A stretch of DNA of 64,000 nt, taken from assembly GCA_963720755.1 (NCBI GenBank), contig CAVRGP010000011.1, positions 736,001-800,000 on the forward strand. Direction: 5' to 3'. How positions within the stretch are numbered: position 1 is the first letter of the stretch; the number at the start of each line of letters is the position of its first letter. The notes beneath the pieces were generated by a model. The model searched no databases. It had not been told where the DNA came from and worked only from the letters and a program-made list of their open reading frames with translations. The position numbers were made by a program, and so were the translations under genes. The stretch is from an uncultured Chloroflexia bacterium (GTDB taxonomy: Bacteria; Chloroflexota; Limnocylindria; Limnocylindrales; CSP1-4). Positions 37,303-48,794 of this stretch are shown here, piece after piece.

Positions 37303-37554
37303 ATGCCGCTGTACCTCGACACGCACGACCATGTCCCTGGCCTGACCGGTGAGGCCGTCGCCCAGGCGCATGCCGCGGACCTGGCGGTCCAGGGCAAGTA
37401 CGACGTCAAGTACCTGCGCTACTGGTACGACGAGGCGACCGGCAAGGTCTTCTGCCTCGCCGAAGCGCCAAGTCCAGAAGCAGCGGAAGCCGTCCACCGG
37501 GAGGCCCACGGCCTGCTCGCCGACTCGATCGTGGAGGTCAAAGAGGGAGCGTAG
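37303..37554 (+). CDS. DUF4242 (SCO4226-like nickel-binding) protein
   Basis: MPLYLDTH, AHAADL, YWYDE..GKVFCL.EAP and HREAHG; AGGAGA RBS, with TTGACA at 37233. Confidence 0.88.
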   Translation: MPLYLDTHDHVPGLTGEAVAQAHAADLAVQGKYDVKYLRYWYDEATGKVFCLAEAPSPEAAEAVHREAHGLLADSIVEVKEGA

Positions 37555-40303
37555 CCAGCGCCTCGTTCGGGGTCATCTGGCGGCCCTCGCGCCTGGCAGC
37601 CTCGAACCGCTCGGTCCCAAGGCGAGCCTCGAGGTTAGCCAGCTGCTGGTCATGCGCGGCGGCGGTCCGGGGCGGGACGATCGCCCGGATGGACTCCCGG
37701 AGTGACGTGGCGGCGCCATCGAGTCGGGCGGCGGCCTCCGGATCCTCGGTCGCGACCGCCCCGGCCAGGCTCTCCATCGCGCTGGCGAGGCCGGGCATGT
37801 CCCCGAGCTCCTGGCGGATCGCCAGGCTCTGCCGGAACAGCCCACGTGCGCGAGGCCCATCCCCATCGGCCAGTGCCAACTCGGCAAGCTGGGTCAGCAC
37901 GCGCGCGACGCCCCGTCGGTCGCCGAGCTCCTCGAGGATGGCCAGGGCTTCGATGTGGAGTGTCCGGGATCGCTCAAGCTGACCGGCTCGGTGGGCGATC
38001 CGCGCGAACGCATCCAGAGCGAACGCCTCCGTCCAGCGATCCCCCAGGCGCCGGATGGAGGCGAGGATCTCCTCCTCGAGCGATTGGGTGGCGGCCAGGT
38101 CGCCCTCCCGAGCCGCGACATCGGCAAGGTTGATGGATCCGAAGGCCGCGCCGCGCACGTCGCCGAGCTCCTTCGAGATCGAGATCGCCTCCTCGTAGAG
38201 TTCGCGGGCCCGCGCATTGTCGCCGAGCTGGATCGAGGTGTTCGCCAGGTTGTTCGCCGCGTAGGCCACGCCCTGTGGATCGCCGATCTGCCGCTGGAGC
38301 GCCAGGCTTTCGCTCTGGAGTTCCGCGGCGGCCCGGAGATCACCCTGCATGAACGCCAGATTGGCGGCGCCGGTCAGGGCATCGGCTCGCAGCGCGGACG
38401 TCTCCTCGCCGACAGCGTCCAGCATCCGATCCAGCCAGGCGCGCCCCTCGGAGAGGTGGCCACGGATCTCCCAGTACCGCCACAGGCCGGCTGCGATCCG
38501 CAGACCCGCCCGGGCCTCGCCGGGTTGATCGAGGCACCATTCGAGGGCGGCTCGAACGTCTTCGTGCTCGTCGTCGAGACGACGGAGCCAATCGATCGGT
38601 TCGGGACCGTGGAAAAAGGCAGGCGATGCCTTGTCGACAAGGGCGAGGAAGAGGTCGCGGTGACGCCGCAGCGTCGAATCGGCCTCGTCCGCCTCGACGA
38701 GCCGGCTGCGGGCGTACTCCCGGACGGTCTCGAGCAGCCGGAAATGGGCCTCCGACGAGGTCGGATCGGTGAACACCAGGGACTTCTCGACCAGCCGTCC
38801 GAGGAGGTCCAGGATGTCCATCGCGTCGACCGGGTCTCCCGCGCAGACTGACTCGGCTGCTTCGAGTGACGCTCCACTCGCGAACACGGACAGGCGTCGG
38901 AGCACCGCTCGCTCCGGCTCGGTCAACAGGTCGTAGCTCCAGTCGATCGTCGCGCGCAACGTCTGATGCCGGGCGACCGACGTTCGACTCCCGCCGGTCA
39001 GGAGCCGGAACCGATCGTCGAGGCGGGACGCGATCTGTTCGACCGGGAGCGCCCTGACGCGGGCCGCCGCGAGTTCGATGGCGAGCGGGATGCCGTCGAG
39101 GCGGCGGCACAGCTGCGCGACCGACCGGGCATTCTGGTCGGTCAATCCGAACGACGGCTGGACCGCCTGCGCGCGCTCCACGAACAGCTGACAGGCATCG
39201 ATCGATGCGAGGTCGCGTGCGCTGATGCTCGCGTCGACGCCGGGCGTCGAGAGCGAGGCGATCGGCAGGATCGCCTCGCCGGGCACGCCAAGCGCCTCCC
39301 GGCTGGTGACGACGATGCGAACCGTGGAGCAGACCTGGACGAGGTTCTCGGCAAGCTCGGCGGCCGCCGTGAGGACGGGGTCGCAGTCGTCGAGGACGAG
39401 GAGGAGTCGCTTGCCTTTGAGTTGATCGACGATCGTGGACAGCAGCGACCGCCCGGCCGGATCGGGCAGACCGATCGCACTCACCACCGAGGGCAGCAGG
39501 AAGCTCGGATCGCTGAGATTGCCGCACTCGATGATCCAGGTCCCGTCGTCGAATCGTTCGAGCAGCGTCCTGGCCAGGCGCCGTCCGATCCGGGTCTTGC
39601 CCACGCCACCCGGACCGGTCAGCGTCAGCAACGACGACTGGTCGAGCATCCGGGTCGCCTGCTCGATCTCACGGTCGCGACCGACGAAGCTCGTGACCTC
39701 GAGCTTGAGGTTGTTCCTCGGCGCATCGCCCGTCCTGGGCGGTGGGAAGTCGCGGGCCAGCCCTGGCCCGGAGACCTGATACAGGCGCTGGGCAGGCCCG
39801 TCGAGCGAGCGCAGGCTGTGCGCTCCCAGGTCGACCGTCCCCAGCGGTGGCCGAAGGTCCTCGGCGACCAAGTCCCGGGTGGTCTGCGAGATCAGGATCT
39901 GGCCGCCGTGACCGGCCGAGCAGATCCTGGCGGCCCGGTGGACGTCCAGTCCGATATAGCCCTCGGTTGCGTTGCGCGGCTCCCCGGTATGGATCCCCAT
40001 CCGGTCACGCACGACGGCGTCGCCGGGCCAGGGGTGGGCCGCGAGGGCCAGCTGCGCGTCGACCGCCGCCTGGACGGCCTCTCGCGCGCTCGCGAAGACG
40101 AAATAGAGCCCATCGCCGGCCGAGCCGCGCTCGAATGCGCCATGCCGGGCGAATGCCTCGCGGATCAACCGATTGTGGTCGGCCAGCACCTCCGGATACC
40201 GGTCGCCGAGCGACTGGAGCAACGCCGTCGAGCCCTCGATGTCGGTGAAGACCATCGTGACGGTCCCGGCCGGAAGCCCCGGCGCCTGTGAATCGATGGA
40301 CAA
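37538..40303 (-). CDS. Class III adenylate/guanylate cyclase fused to a STAND (NB-ARC-like) ATPase and TPR repeats
   Basis: FTDIEGST, GDG, RMGIHTGE and HRAARI (cyclase); FVGRDRE, GPGGVGKT, LLVLDDC, TSRE and LDGIPLAIELAAAR; C-terminal TPRs. GAGGAG RBS precedes TTG 40303. Confidence 0.93.
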   Translation of the reverse strand: MSIDSQAPGLPAGTVTMVFTDIEGSTALLQSLGDRYPEVLADHNRLIREAFARHGAFERGSAGDGLYFVFASAREAVQAAVDAQLALAAHPWPGDAVVRDRMGIHTGEPRNATEGYIGLDVHRAARICSAGHGGQILISQTTRDLVAEDLRPPLGTVDLGAHSLRSLDGPAQRLYQVSGPGLARDFPPPRTGDAPRNNLKLEVTSFVGRDREIEQATRMLDQSSLLTLTGPGGVGKTRIGRRLARTLLERFDDGTWIIECGNLSDPSFLLPSVVSAIGLPDPAGRSLLSTIVDQLKGKRLLLVLDDCDPVLTAAAELAENLVQVCSTVRIVVTSREALGVPGEAILPIASLSTPGVDASISARDLASIDACQLFVERAQAVQPSFGLTDQNARSVAQLCRRLDGIPLAIELAAARVRALPVEQIASRLDDRFRLLTGGSRTSVARHQTLRATIDWSYDLLTEPERAVLRRLSVFASGASLEAAESVCAGDPVDAMDILDLLGRLVEKSLVFTDPTSSEAHFRLLETVREYARSRLVEADEADSTLRRHRDLFLALVDKASPAFFHGPEPIDWLRRLDDEHEDVRAALEWCLDQPGEARAGLRIAAGLWRYWEIRGHLSEGRAWLDRMLDAVGEETSALRADALTGAANLAFMQGDLRAAAELQSESLALQRQIGDPQGVAYAANNLANTSIQLGDNARARELYEEAISISKELGDVRGAAFGSINLADVAAREGDLAATQSLEEEILASIRRLGDRWTEAFALDAFARIAHRAGQLERSRTLHIEALAILEELGDRRGVARVLTQLAELALADGDGPRARGLFRQSLAIRQELGDMPGLASAMESLAGAVATEDPEAAARLDGAATSLRESIRAIVPPRTAAAHDQQLANLEARLGTERFEAARREGRQMTPNEALATLPL

Positions 40304-40438
40304 CGATCGGCTCCTCTGTCGACTCGGACCCAGAAGACTACGCGGAACGCCGATGGTACGGCGTCTCCGACCCGTTGCCACGCATCATCGACGAGGGGAG
40401 CCGATCGTCAGGCCCGGCCCGGCTGCCGAGAGGACCCG

Positions 40439-41268
40439 TCAGCTGGGCTTTGTCGAGGCAGCTCGTGAGCGGGCGGTCGAACTGGCGGAAGGAGGTGTCA
40501 GCCCGCAATCCGGGGTCGTGCAGAGTTCCAGACCCAGCTCGGTCAGGCCCTCGGCGAGGGGCGTGAATCCGAGGTTGCCGGCGAGGCTTCGCGAGGTGAT
40601 CCCGGCGGGCTCTCCTCGGACCAGCACGACGCTGCCGGAGTCGCCACCACCGACCTGGAGTCGCGAGGCGATCAGGCACGGGAAGTAGGAGCCGTCCTGC
40701 GCGGCATCCTGCAGGTAGGAGCCCTTCTCGAGGACCGTCCCGGTGCGGTAGATGCCGCGTCCGTCCATCTCGATCGGATCCCCGACGGCGACGTCGGTAC
40801 AGGCGAGCGGCTGGCTGTCCGGCGCGAGGATCCGGTAGCCGCCGACCCCGAGGTCGATCTCGTTGAGGTGGCCCCACGGGATCCGGTCGGGCGCGACGAT
40901 GAGGTAGTTCATGTCCGACGCCTGACAGGTGTGGTCCGGATAGGCGCAGGTGGCGTCCTGTGCCGTCGGGCCGAAGATGCCCTGGACGGTCCCGTCGGGC
41001 GACGTCGCGGTCGTGCCCATGCCAGCACAATGCGGCGACGACGTGAGCACGATGGTGTCACCGAGCCGCGCATAGACGCCGGCTGAGCAGTAGCCAGGGA
41101 TCCACTGGCCGGCCAGGACCGGAGGGTCGTAGACGGTGTCGTACGGTGCGGCGTCGTGATGGCACGCACGACCGTGAAGGTTCCGAGCCCGAGCGCGAGT
41201 CCGGCCAGGACGACGATGACCAGGCGGACGGGACGGATGCGGATCCGGGCTCGAGTCGTGGGCACCAT
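40439..41268 (-). CDS. Membrane-anchored or secreted S1 (chymotrypsin-like) serine protease, frameshifted near 41150
   Basis: CSAG, TSSPHC (His), SD (Asp) and GDSGS (Ser). The basic and hydrophobic N-terminus lies in the adjacent frame (40909..41268). Confidence 0.7.
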
Positions 41269-41339
41269 GGCCCAACCGTCGCATCGCGGTTCGTCGGCGC
41301 AACACCCTCAAGGTCCTGGGACCTCGGGTCGGTCCGCGG

Positions 41340-41984
41340 TCAACGGCGGAGCATCGTCAGCACCGCCAGCACCCGCCGGTTCAGGTCCGGAGACGGCTCG
41401 AGGTCGAGCTTCTGGAACACGACGGCCGAGGCGGCCTCCACCGTGCGCTCGCTGATCCCGAGTTCACGGGCGATGCCCGCGTTCGACCGGCCCTCGGCCA
41501 TCAGGGCGAGAATCTCGCGTTCGCGGCTCGTGAGTGACTCGAGTGGCGAGTCGGGCCGCCTCCCGCGCATGAGTTGGGCCACGATGGTCGGGTCGATCAC
41601 GCACTCGCCCTCGGTGACCCGGCGCAGGGCATCCACGAGCACGGCGATGTTCGAGACCCGCTCCTTGAGCAGGTACCCGAGTCCGCCGGGCTGGTCGGCG
41701 AGCAGGCGCTGCGCATAGCGCGGCTCCACGTACTGGCTGAGCAGCACGACGGCGGTTGACGGGTGCTCGTCGCGGATCCGCCGCGCGGCGACCAGGCCCT
41801 CATCACTGTGCGTGGGCGGCATCCGGATGTCGACGATCGCGACGTCGGGCTGCTGGCGGACGACGAGCGTCAGTAGCTCATCGGCGTCGCCCGCCTCGCC
41901 CACGACTTCGACGCCGGCATCAGCGAGCAAGCGCGCCAGCCCGGACCGGACCAGCATCACGTCGTCGGCGATGACTACTCGCAT
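41340..41984 (-). CDS. NarL/LuxR family response regulator
   Basis: VVIADD, VDIRMPP (phospho-Asp), LSQY, YLLK and the LuxR HTH LTSREREILALMAEGRSNAGIA. Confidence 0.96.
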   Translation of the reverse strand: MRVVIADDVMLVRSGLARLLADAGVEVVGEAGDADELLTLVVRQQPDVAIVDIRMPPTHSDEGLVAARRIRDEHPSTAVVLLSQYVEPRYAQRLLADQPGGLGYLLKERVSNIAVLVDALRRVTEGECVIDPTIVAQLMRGRRPDSPLESLTSREREILALMAEGRSNAGIARELGISERTVEAASAVVFQKLDLEPSPDLNRRVLAVLTMLRR

Positions 41985-43708
41985 GGCATCTCCGCAGAGA
42001 GAAGGACGCCATCCTCGATGGACCCGACGACGAAGCGGCCGCCGACGGCACCGACCCTGTCGGCCAGATCAGTGAGGTCAGTCTGTTCCATGGCCGGGCA
42101 TCCGAGCAACCGCAGGCGGAAGTGCGCGGTGCCGCCATCCACGGTCACCACGATGCTGGCCGACGGAGAGCCCGGAGCGCGGCGTGCATGCGCTAACACG
42201 GTCGCAACAACGGCATATGCGGCCAGGGCGACATCGCGCTGAAGATCGAGCTGGGGAACATCGAACGTAACTGGCACCTCGGACGCCCGGGCCAGGTCTT
42301 CCAGGGCCGCGGTAAGGCCATGGGTCGCGAGCGTGGCAGGAAAGATCCCGTGCCCAAGCTCACGGAGGTGGGCAAGTGCCTCCCGAACGGCCGCTTCGGC
42401 CCGGCTCAGGTGCTCGTCTCCTGATATCAGGCGGGCGCGGGCAAGACTGAGCTGGAACGAGGCGCTGACCAAACGCTGCTGGGCGCCGTCGTGCAGATCG
42501 CGTTCGATACGCTGCCGTTCGGCGTCAGACGCCTCGACGATCCGGCGCTGGGAACTGCGAACATCGGCGAGGCGCGCCCTGCTCACGGCTTCAAGGCGAA
42601 GGTTCTGGATCGCCAACATGGTGGCTGGGGTGAGCGACGCCGCGACCTCAACGGGGTCGTCGCCCGAGGCGACGCCCAGACGGAGCGCCGGGCCGGAAGC
42701 GTCCGAGATCACGACGCCCCGAGCCACGTCGTGCGCCGGTTCGATCTCGACGCCGAACACGTCAACCCATCGGCCGTCGCCTGGAACCGCGAACTGGACC
42801 TCGCGGGCGTGGCCGCCAGCCCGACGATGCCGAGGCAGGCGCGCGCCGGCGAGGTCGTCGACTAGTTCCCGCACCTCCGTCCGAACCTGGCGCGCAGTGA
42901 TTCCCGCGGCGAGGGGTGCGAACCCGATCAGAAGGGCCGCGGCCACGCTCGGGAGCAGATCAGCGATGCGCGACGGAGCCTCCGTCCAGGTAGTCGCGTG
43001 CCTGATCCAGGGTAGGGCGAGGATCACGACGGCGAGAATTGCCGCCCGCGGGACCATGCTGGAGCGGCGATACGGACCCGGCCGGATCAGCCCGAGCACG
43101 GCGATGACCCCGGCTGCGCTCGTGAATGTCGTGGCAAGCACGTACGCTGCATGTCCCGAGAGCAGGCCGTTGGCCAGTGGCTCGACCCCACTACACGTCC
43201 GGCTGCATCCTGGATCGGTGAGGGGGTTGTACCCGGCCGCCTGCACGAGAACCGCGGCGGCTGCGAACCCATAGATCGCGACGAGCGGGGCGCCGGTGCT
43301 CGTACCCGGCGACCAGCGCAACCCGACGTGCGCGGCACCGGCGAGGGCCATCGGTGCGACGGCGAGCGCATACGCCCGCGCGTCGGCGGATGGCGTTGTC
43401 CATCCGGCCCACGTGGGCACGAGCAAACCGACGGTCGCGACGGCGAGTCCGACCGCTACGGCCGGCCGGTCGCTGCTGGAGATCCAGGCAGCCCCGACGA
43501 TCCCTAGACTCGCAACGAAGGCGATCGCGATCAACCAGGCTGGGAGGGCCAGCTCGAATGGGGATGCCCGATATTCGGGTATCGATACCCCCACGGTCAG
43601 CAGCGCGACACCGCTCGACACCAACGCCGCCACCAGTCCGACTGCACCACGGGGTCGGATCGCCAGCGACGTGATCGACACGCGGGCGCGCATGGTCATG
43701 CGTGGCAT
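41975..43708 (-). CDS. Membrane sensor histidine kinase (HisKA_3): intact H-box, degenerate ATPase domain
   Basis: Multi-TM N-terminus and ERQRIERDLHDGAQQRL. The N-box reads TVLAHARRA and the G1 box reads LLG. Start codon uncertain. Confidence 0.85.
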   Translation of the reverse strand: MPRMTMRARVSITSLAIRPRGAVGLVAALVSSGVALLTVGVSIPEYRASPFELALPAWLIAIAFVASLGIVGAAWISSSDRPAVAVGLAVATVGLLVPTWAGWTTPSADARAYALAVAPMALAGAAHVGLRWSPGTSTGAPLVAIYGFAAAAVLVQAAGYNPLTDPGCSRTCSGVEPLANGLLSGHAAYVLATTFTSAAGVIAVLGLIRPGPYRRSSMVPRAAILAVVILALPWIRHATTWTEAPSRIADLLPSVAAALLIGFAPLAAGITARQVRTEVRELVDDLAGARLPRHRRAGGHAREVQFAVPGDGRWVDVFGVEIEPAHDVARGVVISDASGPALRLGVASGDDPVEVAASLTPATMLAIQNLRLEAVSRARLADVRSSQRRIVEASDAERQRIERDLHDGAQQRLVSASFQLSLARARLISGDEHLSRAEAAVREALAHLRELGHGIFPATLATHGLTAALEDLARASEVPVTFDVPQLDLQRDVALAAYAVVATVLAHARRAPGSPSASIVVTVDGGTAHFRLRLLGCPAMEQTDLTDLADRVGAVGGRFVVGSIEDGVLLSAEMPCE

Positions 43709-43831
43709 TGTGCGACGCATTCGTCCGGTTGATACTCGTGTTTCCCGAAAGGCGAGCCGTGTCAGCCCGCTTCGAGCGGCCACCGTCGAGCGGTACAACC
43801 TGCACATTCAGCCGCGATGTGAGGACCGATC

Positions 43832-45394
43832 ATGAACGGGCAGCGAGTCGGCAGGTTCATTTCTCTCGCCCTCGGTGCGGGGCTGATCGCCGGGTGCGCC
43901 ACCACTCCGCAACCGCAACCAGCGCAGGACAAGGCGGGAACGCAAACGCTCGTCCTGAAGCTTGGCGCCGTCGACTCGATCGCGATCAACGGCCTCTCCT
44001 TTGGCCAGGCAGCCTTCATCGAGGACCTCGAGACGGTGTCCGGCGGACTGGTCAAGGCTGACGTCATCACCAGCTTTGGCGACCAGGCGCCTGATGCGGA
44101 GTCCCAGTTGGTCAGGGCGATCGCTTCCGGTGACATCGACGGCGGTTGGCCGTCGACCCGAGCGTTCGCGAACGCCGGGATCACCGGCCTCGAGGCCGTC
44201 GAGGCTCCGCTGACGATCACGAACTACGCTGCCAGCAAGGCACTGGTGTCCGGGCCGGTCGCGACCGATCTCCTCGATCAGCTGAATGGCACGGGAGTCG
44301 TTGGTCTTGGGTTGGCCGTCGGTCCGCTCCGCCGGCCATTCGCGGCACAGGCGGCGCTGGTGGAGCCGGCAGATTGGAAGGGCGCGACGTTTCGTTCGTT
44401 CAACTCGCCGGTGCAGACCGAGGTGATCCGCGCTCTCGGCGCCACCCCGGTCATCGCCGCCAACGATTGGGTCGATCAGATGAATGCTGGGACGCTCCGC
44501 GGGGCCGAATTCGACATCGAACAGTATTTCGAGAATGGTGCGACGCAAGCCCCGTACGTGACCGCGAATGTGGTCCTCTGGCCAAAGGTGTTCGTGCTCG
44601 CTCTCAGCCAGAAGCGCTTTGACGCCATGTCGGATCAGCAGCGGGCCTGGGTCCAGCAGGCGGCCGAGGCGGCGACCAAGGCATCGGTCGATGCGACCTA
44701 TGACGAGTCGGCGGCGGCCGCCGAACTTTGCGCGCGAGGCGTCCATTTTGTCGAGGCAAACTCGAACCAGCTTGCGCAGCTCCGCGACGCAGTCAGCCCC
44801 GTCATCAAGAAGCTTGCAGCCGATCCATTGAGCGGGCCGATCCTGACGGAGATCCAGGCCGTCGCCGCCCGGTATCCACAGGTTGAGGAACCGACCGTGC
44901 CCCCGTCCTGCCACGAGACTGCCGCGCCCAGCTCAAGTCCGGGTATTCCTGAGGACGTCGCATCGCTGCCGGACGGCGTCTACCGTGAAGAGGTGACGGT
45001 GGCGGACGCTCAGGGTCCCAAGTTCAAGGATCCAGGCCTCCGTGGCACCTGGACACTCACGGTCGATCACGGCACCTTCGCGCTCAGTTGTCGGTTCATC
45101 GACGCGCCCGACACGGATTGTGGACAGAGCCATGCGGATGGGGCGACGGTGGAGGTTGGCCGGCTCCGCGGCACCGGGAACACGGTCTACTTCGTCGGCG
45201 ACCTGGACATGCTGCGAGAGACGACCGGATGTCTGCTCCCGATCTCGATGACGCTGGATGGGCACTGCGTCGTGATCCCGCCGTACTGGTTCACCTGGTC
45301 ACTCGACGGTGACCAACTGACGTTCAAGGCCGTGGGGGGCGAGTTCGTCAACCTGCAGCAATTCTCGGTCAGGGCTTGGACCAGGATCAGCTAG
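43832..45394 (+). CDS. TRAP-type DctP-like substrate-binding lipoprotein with an extra C-terminal domain
   Basis: Lipobox LIAGC; ESQLVRAIASGDID, EAPL, DWKGATFR...IRALGATPV and FDAMSDQQRAWVQQAA; about 165 aa of Cys-containing C-terminal extension. Confidence 0.85.
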   Translation: MNGQRVGRFISLALGAGLIAGCATTPQPQPAQDKAGTQTLVLKLGAVDSIAINGLSFGQAAFIEDLETVSGGLVKADVITSFGDQAPDAESQLVRAIASGDIDGGWPSTRAFANAGITGLEAVEAPLTITNYAASKALVSGPVATDLLDQLNGTGVVGLGLAVGPLRRPFAAQAALVEPADWKGATFRSFNSPVQTEVIRALGATPVIAANDWVDQMNAGTLRGAEFDIEQYFENGATQAPYVTANVVLWPKVFVLALSQKRFDAMSDQQRAWVQQAAEAATKASVDATYDESAAAAELCARGVHFVEANSNQLAQLRDAVSPVIKKLAADPLSGPILTEIQAVAARYPQVEEPTVPPSCHETAAPSSSPGIPEDVASLPDGVYREEVTVADAQGPKFKDPGLRGTWTLTVDHGTFALSCRFIDAPDTDCGQSHADGATVEVGRLRGTGNTVYFVGDLDMLRETTGCLLPISMTLDGHCVVIPPYWFTWSLDGDQLTFKAVGGEFVNLQQFSVRAWTRIS

Positions 45395-47025
45395 GCTGGG
45401 ATCCGTGCGGTGAGTGTCGTACCCACTCCGTAGGGGCTCTCGACGCGGAGCCGACCACCGTACGCAGCCAGCCGATCGGCCAGGCCCTGCAGGCCGAACC
45501 CTGAGGGCTGGGCACCGCCGACCCCGTCGTCGGAGATGGCGATCACAAGGTCGGCACGATCGCGACGCAGGTCGATCGAGATGTGGCTCGCGTGAGCATG
45601 CTTGATCGCATTGGCCATCGCCTCAGAGCAAACGAAGAAGAGCGCCGTCTCACGCTCGACGTCCGCCCGTGCATCGGCTGCCAGCCCGACCGATACCGGG
45701 AGCGGGCACCGCGCGGCAAGCCCGGCGATGGCGTCGACCAGCCCACCGTTGCCGAGGATCGCCGGTGGGAGCCCGCTGATCAGGGCGAGGATCTCGTCGG
45801 CCGAAGCTTCGAGCTCACGGCCCGCGATATCGAGCGGCCCTCGAGCTTCCGCCCCACTCAGATCGCCATCGATGCGCCGGATCTCAGCGCCCGCCACCTT
45901 GATGACCTGCACGACCTCATCGCGCAGTCGTGCCGCGGTCGCGGCCCGCTGTCGATCGGTCGCCACCAGCAGCCGCCCGCGGGCCGCTTCGAGGTTCGCG
46001 AGCTGTAATTCCTGCGCCGCCTGCCAGCGCTCATGGAGCGCGGTGAGGCGGACCGCCTCGATCACGGCCGCGACGATCGTCGGATCCTGCATCGCCGACA
46101 TTCCTCGGTGGATGACCGACGCCAATCGCCCATTACCATCAGCCACGTCGATGATCAACGATTTGCCATCGTTCGCCTCCGTATCCACGCCGGCGGAGTC
46201 CCGATACCGGCCGGCAGTCGGGTCCCATACGAGGATCCTGAGATCGGGATCGCCGAGGGTCTCAGCGAGAAGCGCGGCGAGGCCCTCGATCCCCGCGCCA
46301 CTCTCGTCACCAACGAGGTGGTCCGCAAGCACGGCTCGCTCTCGAGTCACGGTCCAGCTGGCGATCGGAAACCCCACGGCGATCGCGACGAGGACAAGCT
46401 CAAGGCCGAGCAACCATGTCGATGCGTCGTAGTCGCGTGGATCGGTCGTTTCCGTCAACCACGACGTGAGGAGCACGAGGGCGACGCCGGCCGCAGCAAC
46501 GGCCGGAAACCATATAGTCGCGCGCGCCCAACGTCGGTCGATCCACGATGTAGCGGCGACCGCCGCCATGAGCGCGGCCAGCGCGGGGATGGGCGGGATC
46601 ACGCGGATGGCCAGGTAGAGTGCGACGACGAGGAGGGTCGAGGCGACCAGGATCCAGTCGCGAGGTCCGCCCGGACGACCAGTCGGAAACAGCGTCAGGG
46701 CAACCACCAGGATCGCCAGGTAGGCGAGTCGCGCCGCGGGGGCGGGGGACCCGAGTAGCCAGGCGAGCCCGACCGCAGCGAACCACACGCGGCACCGCCA
46801 CGGTCCGGGCGCGAGGATGGCCCCTACGACGAACGCCAGTCCAACGGTCAGGTCCGCGATCGTCGCCGCAGGACCGAGGCTACCGGGGGAGAGATCGGCG
46901 CGAGCCGCCAGGAGCGCCAGGACGGCCGTCATCAGGCCGAACGTCGCCCATGCCATCGGCCGCTGTTTTCCGCGCGTCGCGCCAGCAATGCCCGCCATGC
47001 GCACGTCGATAGTCGATGTCCGCAT
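45391..47025 (-). CDS. Membrane sensor histidine kinase-like protein: intact ATPase domain, no phospho-accepting His
   Basis: Multi-TM N-terminus; H-box position reads QRAATAARLRDEVVQ; intact EAMANAIKH, SDDGVGG, GFGLQGL and GVGTT. Start codon uncertain. Confidence 0.85.
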   Translation of the reverse strand: MRTSTIDVRMAGIAGATRGKQRPMAWATFGLMTAVLALLAARADLSPGSLGPAATIADLTVGLAFVVGAILAPGPWRCRVWFAAVGLAWLLGSPAPAARLAYLAILVVALTLFPTGRPGGPRDWILVASTLLVVALYLAIRVIPPIPALAALMAAVAATSWIDRRWARATIWFPAVAAAGVALVLLTSWLTETTDPRDYDASTWLLGLELVLVAIAVGFPIASWTVTRERAVLADHLVGDESGAGIEGLAALLAETLGDPDLRILVWDPTAGRYRDSAGVDTEANDGKSLIIDVADGNGRLASVIHRGMSAMQDPTIVAAVIEAVRLTALHERWQAAQELQLANLEAARGRLLVATDRQRAATAARLRDEVVQVIKVAGAEIRRIDGDLSGAEARGPLDIAGRELEASADEILALISGLPPAILGNGGLVDAIAGLAARCPLPVSVGLAADARADVERETALFFVCSEAMANAIKHAHASHISIDLRRDRADLVIAISDDGVGGAQPSGFGLQGLADRLAAYGGRLRVESPYGVGTTLTARIPA

Positions 47026-47171
47026 GGCTGTCAAGGCCTCGTGCGCGAGCGACACCGTGCTACCCCGGCTCCGGACCGAGCCAACGCCGTTGGAGCAGGG
47101 GCCCGAGCTTCCTACCTTGGATCCGAGGCCCGGCCGTTGCGTGTGCCGGGCAGGCCGATGGAGGTGGGAAC

Positions 47172-48794
47172 ATGTACGTTCGATCGGGAAGGACACCGGT
47201 GGCCGTCCTGGCGGCGTGGCTCCTGGCGACGACGGCGGTGCCTGGTGCGGTGGCCGCCGCCAGCCCGCTGTGCGTCGGCGGACCGGGCTGCTATACATCG
47301 GTGCAGGCGGCCGCCGATGCGGCGCACGACGGTGATGTGATCAAGATCAACCCCGGAACCTATGCCGGCGGCGTGACCGTCACGGCCAGCGTGCGGCTCA
47401 TCGGCGCCGGCGCGGCCCGGTCCCGGATCAAGGGTGGCGGGCCGGTCCTGACCATCGGGACGTACGGTGCAGATACGGAGCCGACGGTCGTCATCGAGGG
47501 GCTCTCGATCACGGGCGGCGTGACCCGCACGAGCCCGCAGTCATCCGAATGGGTCGGCGAGTCGGGCGTCGTCGCTCTCGGCGGCGGCATCGAGATCCCG
47601 CCCAACGCGGACTACTCCGGTGGCGCAACCGTCACCATCAGGGACAGCCTGATTACCGGCAACCGCGTCGCCCCGTTGACCACGGCGCCCGTCGGGCCGC
47701 CGTGCCCCGCTGGGGCCTGTCCATTCGCTCTGGCCTCGGGTGGAGGCATCGACTCCTGGGGCACGCTGACCCTGGTTCGTACCACGGTGAGCAACAACCT
47801 CGTGGGCGCCGCTTCGGGACTTTCGGACCTCGCCAGCGACGCAGAGGGCGCCGGCATCCGAAGCTGGATCGCACCGCTCACGATCCGGAACAGCCGAATC
47901 ACCGGGAACCGGGCGAGCGCCGTTGCCCCGAATGGACGGTTTGCCGACAGCGGCGGGATCTTCGTCAACGCCGGCTCATTCGAGATGGATCACAGCTCGG
48001 TGAGTGGTAATAGCGTCGTGCTGGAAGCAGCCTTGCCCGACACCGTCGACCTGGGAGCTCACGCCGGCGGCATCCATCTTGCCGACGACGTCGACCACGC
48101 GACGATCAACGACAGCGTCATCGCCGGGAACGCCGTGAGGATGACGAATAGCGTCGGCTCCGCGGACGCGTTCTCGGGCGGCCTTCACGTCGACTGGGGC
48201 GTGCAGCCGTTCACGATGACCGACAGCGTCATCGCCTTCAACCGCGTGTCCGTCAGGACGATTGGTGGATCGACCGGGGACGCCTCCGGCGACTCAGGCG
48301 CGGGCGAAATGCACGGGTCCTTCGACGGCACGCGCTTCGCGGGCAACACCGTGGAAATCAGGTCCGTCGCGGGCAATGCGTACGCTCTCGCCGGCGTGTC
48401 GATCTTCACCGGCGTCATCTCGCACGGCACGGTGGCTGGCAACAGGGTCACGGCCTCGAGCCACAGCGGAGAGGCGTGGATCGGTGGCGCCGCGCTCATG
48501 GCTGACGATGGCGGCATCACCCTGCGCGAGACGACGGTGCGCAACAACACCGCTCACGTGAGCGGTCACGACGCCGCCACGGCACAAGGCGGCGGGATCT
48601 ACGACTCGCCGATCCCCGACGGACCGCCGGGCGGTCCGCTGACGCTCGACCACAGCACTGTGACAGGCAACGTCCTCACCGGCTCGAGCGGCGCCACCCT
48701 CCAGGGCGGCGGGATCTACGCCACGGACGTGCCAGTGACGATCACCAGCAGCGTCGTGCGGCACAACGTTCCCGATCAGTGCTTCGGGTGCTGA
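47172..48794 (+). CDS. Secreted right-handed parallel beta-helix (pectin lyase-like) protein
   Basis: GGAGGT RBS, signal peptide, SVQAAADAAHDGDVIKINPGTY, and repeated GGGI / L.I..S.ITGN units. Confidence 0.78.
   Translation: MYVRSGRTPVAVLAAWLLATTAVPGAVAAASPLCVGGPGCYTSVQAAADAAHDGDVIKINPGTYAGGVTVTASVRLIGAGAARSRIKGGGPVLTIGTYGADTEPTVVIEGLSITGGVTRTSPQSSEWVGESGVVALGGGIEIPPNADYSGGATVTIRDSLITGNRVAPLTTAPVGPPCPAGACPFALASGGGIDSWGTLTLVRTTVSNNLVGAASGLSDLASDAEGAGIRSWIAPLTIRNSRITGNRASAVAPNGRFADSGGIFVNAGSFEMDHSSVSGNSVVLEAALPDTVDLGAHAGGIHLADDVDHATINDSVIAGNAVRMTNSVGSADAFSGGLHVDWGVQPFTMTDSVIAFNRVSVRTIGGSTGDASGDSGAGEMHGSFDGTRFAGNTVEIRSVAGNAYALAGVSIFTGVISHGTVAGNRVTASSHSGEAWIGGAALMADDGGITLRETTVRNNTAHVSGHDAATAQGGGIYDSPIPDGPPGGPLTLDHSTVTGNVLTGSSGATLQGGGIYATDVPVTITSSVVRHNVPDQCFGC

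What the first reader, a model, noticed from the sequence alone, without database searches (positions are those of the whole stretch)
41340..47025. Two histidine kinases with complementary defects: a candidate obligate split (His-only plus ATPase-only) sensor
Seen: kinase A (41975-43708) has a perfect HisKA_3 H-box, ERDLHDGAQQRL (His codon 42491-42493). Its catalytic domain lacks the ATP-binding signatures: the N-box E..N..KH reads TVLAHARRA, the G1 DDG reads LLG, and the G2 G.GL reads TDL. Kinase B (45391-47025) is the mirror image, with intact EAMANAIKH, SDDGVGG and GFGLQGL, but its H-box is eroded to QRAATAARLRDEVVQ (Arg at 45922-45924 where His belongs). The only response regulator in the region overlaps kinase A's stop. 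Established: HisKA_3 kinases are dimers that need both the His and the GHKL boxes. Inference: neither homodimer can autophosphorylate, so signalling would need B's ATPase to phosphorylate A's His, in a heterodimer or in trans. That would be an AND gate over two different membrane sensor domains. CGC is one base from CAC, but the erosion of the whole helix argues against a single read error.
Basis: partly seen in the sequence, partly recalled or inferred. Interest (0 to 1): 0.88.

Follow-up and report, generated by a model that had tools for sequence, protein, structure and literature searches.

The report
Conserved pair of complementary half-kinases
Two neighbouring membrane sensor kinases, one keeping only the phosphorylatable histidine and the other only the ATP-using catalytic domain, are inherited together with a binding protein and a regulator in many soil bacteria, which points to a natural kinase built from two different proteins.

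Summary
Kinase A (41975-43708, -) matches HisKA_3 but not HATPase_c. It keeps LHD (CAC 42491-42493) and has lost the N, G1 and G2 boxes. Kinase B (45391-47025, -) matches HATPase_c but not HisKA_3 and has Arg (CGC 45922-45924) at the His position.

This is neither decay nor a read error. All 120 listed relatives of A keep the His and none has an N box. Of the 42 closest relatives of B, none has His and about 40 keep every ATP box. The genes form a four-gene module: B, a DctP-type lipoprotein binding protein on the opposite strand, A, and a NarL-type regulator. Among 401 genomes of the order, the close A clade and the close B clade occur in the same 8 genomes and at the same loci. The module also occurs in Actinomycetota, including cultured Kribbella.

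Constraint is strongest on A's His helix and on B's ATP domain. In some lineages the A partner still has ATP boxes, which suggests B lost its His first and A lost its ATPase later.

Best reading (about 0.6): B's catalytic domain phosphorylates A's His, and A then serves the regulator. No biochemistry exists, and structure prediction gave only weak support. This is a new variant of the known split-kinase idea.

The parts
45391..47025 (-). Kinase B ('B-type'), 544 aa. It is a polytopic membrane protein of about 6-7 TM helices, with a small beta domain, a DHp-like helical hairpin without the phospho-acceptor His, and an intact CA (ATP-binding) domain.
   Evidence: ORF. HATPase_c 1.2e-10 and no HisKA_3 match. 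Hydropathy. AF2 model with mean pLDDT 84.8, hairpin H315-388/H392-416 and a 12-residue loop at the ATP lid. Orthologues are about 530 aa.
45922..45924 (-). CGC = Arg368 of B, at the column where HisKA_3 kinases carry the phosphorylated His.
   Evidence: Sequence. Alignments. Orthologues at this column: R 31, L 5, Q 1, V 1, S 1, no His.
45394..45720 (-). CA domain of B (aa 436-544) with N box SEAMANAIKHA, G1 SDDGVGGA, G2 GFGLQGLADR and G3 GVGTTL.
   Evidence: These residues are invariant among 36 orthologues: E468 A469 N472, D499 G501 G503 G504, G509 G511 L512 G514 L515, G535 T536. It has the lowest pN/pS of B's domains (0.31).
43832..45394 (+). DctP-family (TRAP-type) solute-binding protein of 520 aa, with a lipobox (LIAGC) and a C-terminal extension of about 190 aa. 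It converges on B, with overlapping stop codons, and diverges from A.
   Evidence: PF03480 1.5e-23, residues 62-329. NCBIfam TRAP_S1. It is the only DctP match in the genome, and the genome has no DctM match. It lies between or beside the two kinases in related loci.
41975..43708 (-). Kinase A ('A-type'), 577 aa. It has about 8 TM helices, a small beta domain, a DHp with an invariant H-box, and a C-terminal Bergerat-like domain without ATP-binding boxes.
   Evidence: ORF. HisKA_3 1.3e-10 and no HATPase_c match. Hydropathy. AF2 model with mean pLDDT 87. Foldseek matches to DesKC and ChpT. Orthologues are about 575 aa.
42491..42493 (-). CAC = His406 of A, the predicted phospho-acceptor, within ERDLHDGAQQRL. 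The following D..QQ is the HisKA_3 phosphatase motif.
   Evidence: Sequence. His is present in 120 of 120 relatives. R398 R400 E402 D404 L405 H406 D407 G408 A409 Q410 Q411 are invariant in 55 sequences. The role of the Gln comes from passages of PMC5231405.
41978..42283 (-). Degenerate CA-like domain of A (aa 476-577). The alpha/beta fold is kept, the N, G1 and G2 boxes are lost, and the ATP-lid loop is reduced to about 6 residues.
   Evidence: for the motifs. for secondary structure (E480-483 H491-510 E516-524 E527-535 H542-554 E558-564 E567-575, pLDDT about 90).
41340..41984 (-). NarL/LuxR-type response regulator of 214 aa, whose start overlaps A's stop by 10 nt. The acidic pocket DD and the acceptor Asp (VAIVDIRMP) are present.
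   Evidence: Response_reg 4.1e-17 and GerE 7.2e-15. It is 85-96% identical in the close modules and 77-80% in the Kribbella modules. pN/pS is 0.11.

Best explanation
The four genes form one signalling module, a histidine kinase divided between two paralogous membrane proteins.

B keeps a working ATP-binding catalytic (CA) domain but has no histidine to phosphorylate. A keeps the phospho-acceptor His, the adjacent general-base Asp and the HisKA_3 phosphatase motif (HD..QQ), but its CA domain can no longer bind ATP.

The proposed mechanism runs as follows. A and B associate through their DHp helices, either as an A:B heterodimer or as neighbouring dimers. B's CA domain phosphorylates His406 of A in trans. 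A~P passes the phosphoryl group to the Asp of the NarL-type regulator encoded just downstream, and unphosphorylated A acts as its phosphatase. The orphan DctP-type lipoprotein encoded between the kinases is the likely extracytoplasmic ligand receptor feeding one or both membrane domains.

Shown here: the reciprocal motif states, their conservation, the synteny, the co-occurrence, the retained folds and the distribution. Inferred: physical association, the phosphoryl flow B to A to RR, and the role of the binding protein.
For: (1) Reciprocal states in the window are confirmed.

(2) Each state is a family trait under selection. For A: His in 120 of 120, N box in 0 of 120, and all 120 carry PF07730 only, with 11 H-box residues invariant. 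For B: 0 His among the 42 closest clusters, N box 40/42, G1 40/42, G2 39/42, with the misses being truncated entries. ATP-binding residues are invariant, and no His is conserved in B's DHp.

(3) Constraint sits where the model needs it. pN/pS is 0.32 in A's DHp against 0.61-0.64 in A's other domains. It is 0.31 in B's CA against 0.45-0.64 in B's other domains (synonymous sites are saturated, so only the ranking counts).

(4) Co-inheritance. Among 401 genomes of the order, the close A clade is in 8 genomes. The close B clade is in the same 8 (broken across frames in G352). They lie at the same loci in the order B-SBP-A-RR, in 7 genus codes, and in only 1 of 71 genomes sampled from the window's own genus.

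(5) More distant modules with the same layout occur in 8 genomes of the genus and across Actinomycetota, including five Kribbella records. In the GTDB-wide loci, 29 tandem pairs were fully alignable. The upstream partner lacks His in 27, the downstream partner keeps His in 29, and the downstream partner has none of the three ATP boxes in 24.

(6) A-types and B-types each form one clade (SH-aLRT 87 and 92), so the division of labour arose once and persisted.

(7) Evolutionary order. In L126, L130, L134, L140 and L093 the His-bearing partner still has some or all ATP boxes while B already lacks His. The later loss of A's ATPase in most lineages, with its His kept invariant, is expected if B's ATPase already served A.

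(8) In L093, L096, L099, L100, L143 and L173, B and A are directly adjacent or overlapping on one strand.

(9) A's CA-like domain is still a confident alpha/beta fold without an ATP lid, and its cytoplasmic part matches DesKC and ChpT. B's DHp is a confident hairpin.

(10) In HisKA_3 kinases the His is not needed for phosphatase activity (passage of PMC5231405 citing Huynh 2010). The absolute conservation of A's His therefore argues for phosphotransfer.

(11) Complex prediction of A(370-577) with B(322-544): ipSAE 0.53, best of 3 controls 0.00, verdict 'weak support'. The mark was reached by 58 of 80 solved complexes and 2 of 110 mismatched pairs. At 0.60 or under it was reached by only 7 of those 80 and by both mismatches. 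The runs agree in at least 96% of contacts and partner pLDDT is at least 80. Kinase dimers are solved, so the pass may reflect likeness only.
Against: There is no biochemical or genetic evidence of any kind.

B and A are not co-transcribed in the window, because the SBP gene on the other strand separates them.

The complex score is in the range where passes are more often wrong than right unless the guess was already likely. It cannot distinguish A:B from A:A or B:B.

Exceptions exist:
- In L044 (G068) B keeps His and A has Leu there.
- L105 and L165 have B-types with His.
- L102 (G100:C2) has A-RR-SBP with no B-type within the 17 kb fetched.
- The B-type is broken across frames in G352 (L095/L142), L046, L101, L103, L104, L124, L129, L131, L133 and L135. 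These may be assembly errors or real decay.

The window's own A and B sit on the longest branches of their clades (2.1 and 2.6).

pN/pS of the 'dead' domains (0.61 for A's CA-like domain, 0.45 for B's DHp) equals that of the membrane domains, and synonymous sites are saturated, so selection on those domains is not demonstrated.

Whether HisKA_3 kinases autophosphorylate in trans is recalled knowledge. I could not confirm it in the passages I read.

HK-like proteins with dead CA domains can instead be fed by a receiver domain (PhyK, ChpT).
Confidence: 0.6

Rival explanations
1. A is a membrane-bound histidine phosphotransferase/phosphatase of the ChpT, PhyK or PhyP kind. It is fed by some other donor (another kinase or a receiver protein) or acts only as the regulator's phosphatase. 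B is a pseudokinase-type modulator in the manner of DivL or RetS. It binds ATP and tunes A, or the binding-protein signal, without transferring phosphate to A.
For: HK-like proteins with inactive CA domains that relay phosphate from a receiver are documented. ChpT has an atypical Bergerat fold, binds no ATP and does not autophosphorylate (passages of PMC3433190). PhyK/LovK and PhyP have a degenerate CA domain (passages of PMC5964349).

Foldseek lists ChpT (4fmt_A, E 4e-4) and the RetS-GacS co-complex (7n0e_B) among A's matches.

A keeps the phosphatase motif. The genome has 8 other HisKA_3 matches that could in principle act as donors. Several loci have a frame-broken B beside an intact A, and L102 has no B within 17 kb. 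The complex prediction gave only weak support.
Against: No receiver domain other than the NarL-type regulator lies in the module or anywhere in the 64-kb window. B has no receiver domain.

B's Mg/ATP-binding and lid residues are invariant, which is more than a scaffold needs.

A's His is invariant in 120 of 120, although the His is dispensable for HisKA_3 phosphatase activity.

Strict co-occurrence of A and B at one locus in 8 of 8 genomes, and spread of the whole module across phyla, fit a donor encoded in the module better than an external one.
Confidence: 0.25
2. B is a protein kinase or ATPase with another substrate, for example Ser/Thr phosphorylation as in the GHKL anti-sigma-factor kinases, or ATP-dependent control of the binding protein or of a transporter. 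On this reading its adjacency to A reflects shared regulation only.
For: B also matches HATPase_c_2 (PF13581, 8.4e-06, below the cut-off) and weakly matches spIIAB (TIGR01925, E 0.011). B is transcribed separately from A in the window.
Against: B is a full-length paralogue of the same HisKA_3 kinase family, with a conserved DHp hairpin. Its best NCBIfam matches are UhpB and MctS. No candidate substrate gene other than A, the SBP and the RR is conserved in the module. The genome has no TRAP permease match.
Confidence: 0.08
3. The two defects are independent decay (pseudogenes) or sequencing/assembly errors in a metagenome-assembled genome.
For: The genome is 93.6% complete in 15 contigs. At 69% GC, long open frames persist by chance. 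The window's A and B have long branches. CGC is one base from CAC.
Against: The same states recur in dozens of orthologues at 40-74% identity, from different assemblies and from cultured Kribbella genomes. Key residues of the retained halves are invariant. The regulator is 85-96% identical across the close modules, with pN/pS 0.11. A short-read contig agrees with the Arg codon.
Confidence: 0.02

Closest known systems
CheA3/CheA4 split kinase of Rhodobacter sphaeroides (passages of PMC3591291)
   Same: The phospho-acceptor and the ATP-using catalytic domain lie on two different proteins. Neither autophosphorylates alone. The His-bearing partner is also the phosphatase of the regulator. The same paper notes that 1556 of 42417 HisKA proteins in SMART lack a HATPase domain and could be split kinases.
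   Different: That system is CheA-class (HPt P1 domain, soluble, docked to chemoreceptor arrays), and each protein simply lacks the other's domain. Here both are full-length class-I HisKA_3-type membrane paralogues that keep both domains as folds with reciprocal inactivation. They also carry two different membrane domains and a dedicated binding protein.
HK1/HK2-TcrA of Mycobacterium tuberculosis
   Same: It has three genes. Recalled from Shrivastava et al. 2007, which I did not read: one protein carries the ATP-binding domain and the other the His. I saw only its listing as 'HK1/HK2 ... TcrA' in the review PMC9321153.
   Different: As recalled, those are fragments of one HisKA/OmpR-type kinase gene, not two full-length paralogues. 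There is no binding protein and it belongs to a different kinase subfamily.
ChpT (Caulobacter) and Spo0B (Bacillus): kinase-like histidine phosphotransferases (passages of PMC3433190)
   Same: A resembles them in having a DHp-type four-helix-bundle His carrier plus a Bergerat-like domain whose ATP lid is gone. ChpT (4fmt_A) is among A's Foldseek matches.
   Different: ChpT and Spo0B are soluble and receive phosphate from a receiver Asp in a phosphorelay. A is a polytopic membrane protein with a HisKA_3 H-box. No receiver domain other than the output regulator is encoded nearby. A paralogue with a live ATPase is.
PhyK/LovK (Caulobacter) and PhyP (Sphingomonas) (abstract and passages of PMC5964349)
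   Same: These are kinase-shaped proteins that work as phosphotransferases or phosphatases. PhyP has a degenerate CA domain.
   Different: They belong to the HWE/HisKA2 families and are fed by a single-domain response regulator. They have no paired His-less ATPase paralogue.
Laboratory intermolecular complementation of kinase mutants (EnvZ, NtrB)
   Same: A His-minus subunit and an ATP-binding-minus subunit together restore phosphorylation, which is the exact logic proposed here. This is recalled from Yang & Inouye 1991 and Ninfa 1993, neither of which I read. PMC3591291 states that EnvZ's HATPase and HisKA domains work when placed on separate polypeptides.
   Different: Those are engineered mutants of one gene. 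Here it is a natural, conserved arrangement of two diverged genes.
Pseudokinase partners: DivL (PMC4211667, search listing and start of abstract only) and RetS-GacS (PDB 7n0e title)
   Same: A kinase-family protein without a usable His acts through contact with another two-component protein. RetS and GacS associate through their kinase regions.
   Different: As recalled, DivL and RetS act as regulators or inhibitors and do not supply ATPase activity to a partner whose own ATPase is dead.
AbrC1/AbrC2/AbrC3 of Streptomyces coelicolor (passages of PMC4428217)
   Same: Two adjacent kinases and one NarL-type regulator in an actinomycete.
   Different: Both AbrC kinases autophosphorylate on their own His in vitro, so both are complete kinases.
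Binding-protein-dependent sensor kinases (TorT-TorS, LuxP-LuxQ; recalled, not read here)
   Same: A periplasmic-type binding protein with no transporter role is encoded beside the kinase and delivers the ligand signal.
   Different: Here the binding protein is of the DctP/TRAP family with a C-terminal extension. It is a lipoprotein and is paired with two half-kinases. Its role is inferred only from synteny and from the lack of a TRAP permease.

Membership tests
Canonical HisKA_3 sensor histidine kinase (DesK/NarX/LiaS type) | DHp domain with the H-box phospho-acceptor His | tested here: met
   For A: PF07730 1.3e-10 with LHD at His406. B is covered in the next row.
Canonical HisKA_3 sensor histidine kinase (DesK/NarX/LiaS type) | The same feature, tested in B | tested here: not met
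   No PF07730 match at E<=1. Arg is at the His column. No His is conserved in the DHp of 36 orthologues.
Canonical HisKA_3 sensor histidine kinase (DesK/NarX/LiaS type) | CA domain with N, G1 and G2 ATP-binding boxes, tested in A | tested here: not met
   No PF02518 match at E<=1. All three boxes are absent in A. The N box is absent in 120 of 120 relatives. The ATP-lid loop is about 6 residues in the model.
Canonical HisKA_3 sensor histidine kinase (DesK/NarX/LiaS type) | CA domain with N, G1 and G2 boxes, tested in B | tested here: met
   PF02518 1.2e-10. The boxes are intact and invariant among orthologues.
Canonical HisKA_3 sensor histidine kinase (DesK/NarX/LiaS type) | Adjacent NarL/LuxR-type response regulator | tested here: met
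   The RR overlaps A's stop and has Response_reg + GerE. It is present after the A-type in related loci.
Split (two-protein) histidine kinase | Phospho-acceptor and ATP-binding catalytic function on separate polypeptides | tested here: met
   Met at the sequence level only.
Split (two-protein) histidine kinase | The two genes co-occur and are co-inherited | tested here: met
   Same genomes and same loci in 8 of 8 cases among 401 genomes. 27 of 29 readable tandem pairs elsewhere.
Split (two-protein) histidine kinase | Neither protein autophosphorylates alone, while the mixture labels the His-bearing one | not testable with these tools
   This needs gamma-32P-ATP assays.
Split (two-protein) histidine kinase | Physical association of the two proteins | tested here: inconclusive
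   Complex prediction: ipSAE 0.53, best of 3 controls 0.00, verdict 'weak support'. The mark was reached by 58 of 80 solved complexes and 2 of 110 mismatched pairs, but at 0.60 or under by only 7 of those 80 and by both mismatches. The runs agree in at least 96% of contacts and partner pLDDT is at least 80. Solved kinase dimers may explain the pass.
Kinase-like histidine phosphotransferase (ChpT/Spo0B/PhyK type), considered for A | DHp-like His carrier plus a Bergerat-like domain unable to bind ATP | tested here: met
   AF2 model and motif loss. Foldseek match to ChpT 4fmt_A, E 4e-4, TM 0.47 on the target.
Kinase-like histidine phosphotransferase (ChpT/Spo0B/PhyK type), considered for A | Receives phosphate from an upstream receiver (Asp) domain | tested here: not met
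   B has no receiver domain. There is no second Response_reg match in the 64-kb window. A distant donor cannot be excluded.
TRAP transporter (DctPQM), considered for the binding protein | DctP-family binding protein together with DctQ/DctM membrane subunits | tested here: not met
   DctP domain present. No DctM (PF06808) match in the 93.6%-complete genome. Only one DctP match in the genome. DctQ was not searched.

The most novel reading that the evidence does not exclude
A natural, hard-wired asymmetric histidine kinase. After a gene duplication, an ancestral homodimeric HisKA_3 sensor became an obligate A:B hetero-complex with a single active site (B's ATPase acting on A's His) and two different membrane sensor domains served by a dedicated orphan TRAP-type binding protein. 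The four-gene unit then spread as a cassette between Chloroflexota and Actinomycetota. On this reading it would be the first class-I membrane sensor kinase known to work only as a heteromer of two reciprocally inactivated paralogues. Intermediate stages (B without His, A still complete) survive in living lineages.
Probability: 0.45. Interest if true: 0.88.

Novelty: new variant of a known kind. Interest (0 to 1): 0.8.

Why it matters
Sensor histidine kinases are treated as homodimers in which every subunit carries both the His and the ATPase. That one subunit can phosphorylate the other has so far been shown mostly with engineered mutants. Natural 'split' kinases are documented for the CheA class and suspected from domain censuses.

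This module would give a natural, widespread test case for class-I membrane sensors, with three uses. It offers a fixed asymmetric dimer for structural work on the autophosphorylation step. It shows how a homodimer can evolve into a heteromer by reciprocal loss, with intermediates still present. It is also a signalling design in which kinase and phosphatase functions lie on different proteins, and modelling of split kinases links that design to switch-like responses (PMC3591291, passages read).

For annotation, thousands of proteins now called 'histidine kinase' in these families cannot be autokinases, and orphan DctP-type proteins next to them are probably sensors and not transport components. 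The module exists in cultured, harmless Kribbella species, so the idea can be tested directly.

Tried and rejected
- Anchoring orthologous loci on the response regulator failed. Regulators of all kinases of this family are 51-63% identical to the window's, so the regulator does not single out the module. I used full-length kinase profiles instead.

- Searching the window's own genus with A or B alone gave no close orthologue (best 33-44% identity). This first looked like lineage-specific decay. Wider searches showed that the close relatives lie in other genera.

- The search for related loci with B alone found nothing. The permitted second scan, with alignment A2, found 80 loci.

- pN/pS. Synonymous differences are saturated (pS about 0.55), so absolute values cannot prove purifying selection on the inactivated domains. 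I use only the ranking of domains. The script stopped on a division by zero after printing part of its output. One search is the corrected run.

- Reads. All four runs are Logan contigs from one study, and X1 may be the source sample. Only X1 record 7 bridges the Arg codon with 31 or more letters on each side. X4 record 31 ends 16 letters past it. X2 and X3 do not cover it. The differing letters listed at 41370-41731 lie in the regulator gene and come from contigs under 95% alike, probably paralogues or relatives. No RNA run was found, so nothing can be said about expression.

- Literature. The phrases 'heterodimeric histidine kinase', 'histidine kinase heterodimer', 'heteromeric histidine kinase', 'kinase-dead paralog', 'sensor kinase heterodimer' and 'obligate heterodimer histidine' returned 0 papers. 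No hit described a pair of reciprocally inactivated HisKA_3 paralogues. The library lacks most subscription journals and supplements are closed, so absence in print is not shown. The review by Willett and Crosson 2017 (PMC5218898) is not held. I could not confirm from passages read that DesK-type kinases autophosphorylate in trans.

- The lab-evolved ChrS pseudokinase paper (PMC9491836) was seen only as a search listing and was not pursued.

- I did not analyse the SBP's C-terminal extension, the membrane domains' ligand sites, promoters or the regulon.

Full report
WHAT IS THERE

The region holds four genes:
- a NarL/LuxR-type response regulator (41340-41984, -);
- kinase A (41975-43708, -, 577 aa; the open frame runs on to 43807);
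- a DctP-family solute-binding protein on the other strand (43832-45394, +, 520 aa);
- kinase B (45391-47025, -, 544 aa; the frame is open to 47298).

The window is 65-71% G+C in this region and belongs to a 3.0-Mb, 15-contig genome estimated 93.6% complete.

Pfam gives A a HisKA_3 match (1.3e-10) and no HATPase_c match at E<=1. It gives B a HATPase_c match (1.2e-10) and no HisKA_3 match. NCBIfam kinase models (MctS, UhpB) nevertheless align across the whole cytoplasmic part of both proteins, so the 'missing' domains are present as diverged sequence.

A and B are paralogues: 27% identity, E 4e-12 over A288-608 and B302-634 of the long ORFs.

In an alignment with 13 paralogous kinases from genomes of the same genus, all 13 have the N, G1 and G2 boxes and 12 have ERDLHDGAQQRL. 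A alone lacks all three boxes, and B has Arg at the His column with intact boxes. The regulator's start overlaps A's stop by 10 nt. It is the only receiver-domain match in the whole 64-kb window, and B's CA is the only HATPase_c match there.

NOT AN ERROR, NOT DECAY

A search of 5.8 billion protein clusters with A returned 1865 hits at E<=1e-10, scored from the 8000 best-matching candidates. The 120 best (39-100% identity, mostly full length) all carry PF07730 only. Aligned to a profile of canonical family members:
- 120 of 120 keep the His;
- 0 of 120 have the N box;
- only 7 show a single lax match to G1 or G2.

In an alignment of 55 of them, R398 R400 E402 D404 L405 H406 D407 G408 A409 Q410 Q411 are invariant.

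The same search with B returned 73 hits. The 42 closest (38-100% identity; this count includes the window's own protein) carry HATPase_c and never HisKA_3 (two truncated entries have no Pfam domain on record). At the His column they read R 31, L 5, Q 1, V 1, S 1, with 3 not alignable and no His. The N box is intact in 40, G1 in 40 and G2 in 39, and the misses are truncated entries. Among 36 aligned orthologues the ATP-binding residues are invariant, and no His is conserved anywhere in the DHp region.

A short-read contig of a public run covers the Arg codon without a difference, and another covers A's H-box and most of its C-terminal domain. That run may be the source sample, so I count it only as consistent.

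A CONSERVED FOUR-GENE MODULE

I built a 211-position profile of DHp+CA from 12 canonical kinases of the genus and scored all six-frame ORFs of the fetched loci. The scores were bimodal. Canonical kinases scored 230 bits or more. Those scoring 105-196 bits came as pairs about 3.5 kb apart on one strand, in 8 genomes including the window's.

In all 8, the upstream member is B-like and the downstream member is A-like. A DctP-type gene lies between them on the other strand, and a regulator 59-65% identical to the window's follows A. Seven of the 8 B-types lack His (R, A, R, R, N, D, D). Seven of the 8 A-types keep it, and all 8 A-types lack the N and G2 boxes. The exception is L044 (G068), where B keeps His and A has Leu.

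In a maximum-likelihood tree of 54 kinases, the 8 A-types form one clade (SH-aLRT 87) and the 8 B-types another (92). Because identical rows were merged, four of these appear under other locus names. The window's two proteins have the longest branches.

Closer relatives lie outside the genus. With the B profile (A2), 401 genomes of the order gave very high scores (482-864 bits) only in G341, G208, G246 (two copies), G210, G262, G378 and the window's genome. Pieces of a frame-broken copy appeared in G352. With the A profile (A1), the same 401 genomes gave E<=1e-75 in exactly G208, G210, G246 (two copies), G262, G341, G352, G378 and the window's genome. The close clades therefore coincide in 8 of 8 genomes.

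The fetched loci show the order B - SBP - A - RR, with the regulator 85-92% and the binding protein 56-67% identical to the window's. These genomes carry 7 different genus codes. Within the window's own genus only 1 of 71 sampled genomes has this clade. The unit is thus patchily distributed and moves, or is retained, as a whole. None of the 42 genomes of the second family of the order had a match.

A scan of one genome per GTDB species with A2 returned 80 loci with record titles. The closest (52-74% identity) are MAGs labelled uncultured Chloroflexia or Candidatus Limnocylindria. The window's genome therefore probably belongs to that Chloroflexota lineage; this is an inference from the labels of relatives. 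One A homologue is labelled Acidimicrobiales.

Full-length relatives at 39-45% identity occur in Actinomycetota:
- five Kribbella records, four of them named cultured strains;
- Phytohabitans;
- Dactylosporangium (contig end);
- MAGs labelled Propionibacteriaceae, Jiangellaceae, Acidimicrobiales and Ilumatobacteraceae.

In these loci I found 47 tandem kinase pairs, of which 29 had both partners fully alignable:
- The upstream partner lacks His in 27 (R 15, G 6, L 2, A 2, N 1, gap 1) and keeps it in 2. These two are L165 and L175, and L175 is simply two canonical kinases in tandem.
- The downstream partner keeps His in 29 of 29.
- The downstream partner has none of the three ATP boxes in 24, and 1 to 3 boxes in 5 (L126, L130, L134, L140, L175).

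In Kribbella the B-type has Gly at the His column and no His in that helix. The regulator there is 77-80% identical to the window's, far above the roughly 41-43% of the kinases.

Some of these loci repeat those: L107=L086, L108=L088, L109=L089, L111=L091, L150=L087, L142=L095.

EXCEPTIONS AND WEAK POINTS OF THE COMPARATIVE PICTURE

- L044: the roles are partly swapped.
- L105 and L165: the B-type keeps His.
- L093 (G182): the A partner keeps its G1 and G2 boxes and part of its N box.
- L102 (G100:C2): A - RR - SBP with no B-type within 17 kb.
- B-types are broken across reading frames in L095/L142, L046, L101, L103, L104, L124, L129, L131, L133 and L135. Some A-types and regulators are also broken (L016 RR, L120, L131, L133). 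I cannot tell assembly errors from real decay.

In L093, L096, L099, L100, L143 and L173 the two kinase genes are directly adjacent or overlapping, with the binding-protein gene elsewhere in the locus or not found.

STRUCTURE

AlphaFold2 on the A alignment (mean pLDDT 87, pTM 0.67) predicts:
- eight to nine membrane helices (21-287);
- a small beta domain (301-346);
- a long DHp hairpin (361-426, 431-452);
- a compact alpha/beta C-terminal domain (480-575) at pLDDT about 90, with only about 6 residues where the ATP lid should be.

Foldseek places the cytoplasmic part on DesKC structures (for example 3gif_A, E 1.7e-5, 214 columns). It also lists ZraS, the RetS-GacS co-complex and the kinase-like phosphotransferase ChpT.

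B's model (mean pLDDT 84.8) has a confident hairpin (315-388, 392-416) and a CA domain with a 12-residue lid loop.

Hydropathy gives about 8 helices for A, with a loop carrying a conserved Cys pair, and about 6-7 helices for B. No similarity between the two membrane domains was detected by BLASTP.

WHERE SELECTION ACTS

Among the 7-8 close modules, pN/pS was as follows:
- A: DHp 0.32, against membrane domain 0.64, middle domain 0.64 and CA-like domain 0.61.
- B: CA 0.31, against membrane domain 0.64, middle domain 0.55 and DHp 0.45.
- Regulator: 0.11.
- Binding protein: 0.46.

Synonymous sites are saturated (pS about 0.55), so only the ranking is meaningful. Constraint is concentrated on the His helix of A and the ATPase of B.

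THE BINDING PROTEIN

The DctP-type protein has a lipobox near its N terminus (sequence) and a conserved C-terminal extension. It is the only DctP match in the genome, and the genome has no DctM match (DctQ was not searched; completeness 93.6%). It is therefore unlikely to serve a TRAP transporter. Its fixed place in the module suggests a co-sensor role. That role is an inference.

MECHANISM

The most economical reading is a kinase divided between two paralogues. B supplies the ATP-dependent catalysis, and A supplies the acceptor His, the docking surface for the regulator and the phosphatase motif.

Four arguments go beyond mere co-occurrence.
1. B's catalytic residues are invariant although it has nothing of its own to phosphorylate.
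2. A's His is invariant, although in HisKA_3 kinases the His is dispensable for phosphatase activity (a passage of PMC5231405 citing work on NarX). A's conserved function should therefore include carrying phosphate.
3. No other receiver domain that could feed A is encoded nearby.
4. Lineages survive in which B already lacks His while the partner is still a more or less complete kinase. This implies that A's ATPase was lost later, and was lost without harm to its His, as expected if B's ATPase was already doing the work.

The single complex prediction allowed (A 370-577 with B 322-544) scored ipSAE 0.53 against a best control of 0.00, with the verdict 'weak support'. The mark was reached by 58 of 80 solved complexes and 2 of 110 mismatches. 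At 0.60 or under it was reached by only 7 of the 80 and by both mismatches. The runs agreed in at least 96% of contacts and partner pLDDT was at least 80. Because kinase dimers are solved, this may show likeness only. It does not distinguish a heterodimer from homodimers.

Whether transfer occurs within an A:B dimer or between an A dimer and a B dimer is open. A within-dimer route requires trans-autophosphorylation geometry, which I recall for DesK-type kinases but could not confirm in what I read.

COMPARISON WITH WHAT IS KNOWN

- Split kinases are established for the CheA class. For CheA3/CheA4, neither autophosphorylates alone, CheA4 phosphorylates CheA3, and CheA3 is also the phosphatase. 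They were predicted for HisKA proteins lacking a HATPase domain, which make up 3.66% in SMART (PMC3591291, passages).
- Hik36-Hik43 of Synechocystis is a split CheA-like kinase (PMC7656254).
- The M. tuberculosis HK1/HK2-TcrA system is listed in a review. Its details are recalled.
- Kinase-shaped phosphotransferases with dead ATP domains are known: ChpT, Spo0B, PhyK and PhyP.
- Two-kinase/one-regulator systems such as AbrC have two complete kinases.

None of the ten searches turned up two full-length membrane HisKA_3 paralogues with reciprocal, conserved inactivation plus a dedicated binding protein. The library is incomplete and supplements were closed. I therefore rate this a new variant of a known kind.

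VERDICT

The finding is real, conserved and widespread. The presence of the module in cultured Kribbella makes that test straightforward.

Noticed in passing
window 43193-43207 (-), aa 168-172 of kinase A: Two cysteines in the motif DPGCxRTC are invariant in 55 A-type proteins (C168) or nearly so (C172). They sit in the only long loop (about aa 159-189) between membrane helices. A C-terminal Cys (C576, '..PC..') is also invariant. This could be a disulfide, redox or metal site of the sensor.
   Followed up: no
window 44819-45391 (+), aa 330-520 of the binding protein: The DctP-type protein carries a C-terminal extension of about 190 aa with no Pfam match. Alignments to the window's protein run over 470-524 residues in close modules and in Kribbella, so the extension is conserved. 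The genome has no DctM match and only this one DctP match.
   Followed up: partly
L186:2054-4958 (= G000:C2:40053-42957): The same genome holds a second HisKA_3 protein without recognisable ATP boxes (676-aa frame; His present; profile match ends before G1). It lies directly downstream of a small soluble complete kinase (283-aa frame). This may be another divided kinase of a different kind.
   Followed up: partly
L088 (= G246:C3:25000-42000), also L108: Two complete B-SBP-A-RR modules of different subfamilies lie in the same 17 kb in opposite orientation, their regulator genes facing each other. One has B with Gln at the His column and a regulator 62% identical to the window's. The other has Arg and a regulator 92% identical. 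G011:C6 also has two modules about 65 kb apart (L016, L104).
   Followed up: partly
L126, L130, L134, L140, L093: In these loci the His-less B-type is paired with a downstream kinase that still has some or all ATP boxes. They look like intermediate stages of the reciprocal loss.
   Followed up: partly
P0164, P0171, P0174, P0175; L143, L163, L167: More distant His-less kinases have a conserved '..L/I-R-E/D-G-P/A-E..RL' helix (Arg for His). They include MAGs labelled Solirubrobacteraceae, Thermoleophilia and Actinomycetes, again next to an A-like partner where the locus is readable.
   Followed up: partly
window 37538-40381 (-): A 947-aa protein combines an adenylate/guanylate cyclase catalytic domain, a STAND/AAA NTPase (NB-ARC-like) and TPR repeats.
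   Followed up: no
window 40439-41311 (-) and 47016-48794 (+): Two genes flank the module in the window. One is a 290-aa protein without a Pfam match that contains a GGDSGS motif, typical of chymotrypsin-like serine proteases (recalled). The other is a 592-aa right-handed beta-helix protein. Neither was found beside the related modules.
   Followed up: partly
G000:C5:33946-34955 and G000:C12:8277-9286: Two contigs of the window's genome give identical or nearly identical scores for a HisKA_3, a HATPase_c and a receiver match at matching spacing. This is probably a duplicated stretch or a redundant contig in the assembly. G246 likewise carries the module twice with identical scores (C3 and C10).
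   Followed up: no
L106-L185 record titles: The closest relatives of the module are labelled Chloroflexia or Limnocylindria, whereas others at about 40-45% identity are labelled Actinomycetota, and one 'Acidobacteriota'. The regulator stays at 77-85% identity. This suggests transfer of the cassette between phyla, or mislabelled bins.
   Followed up: no
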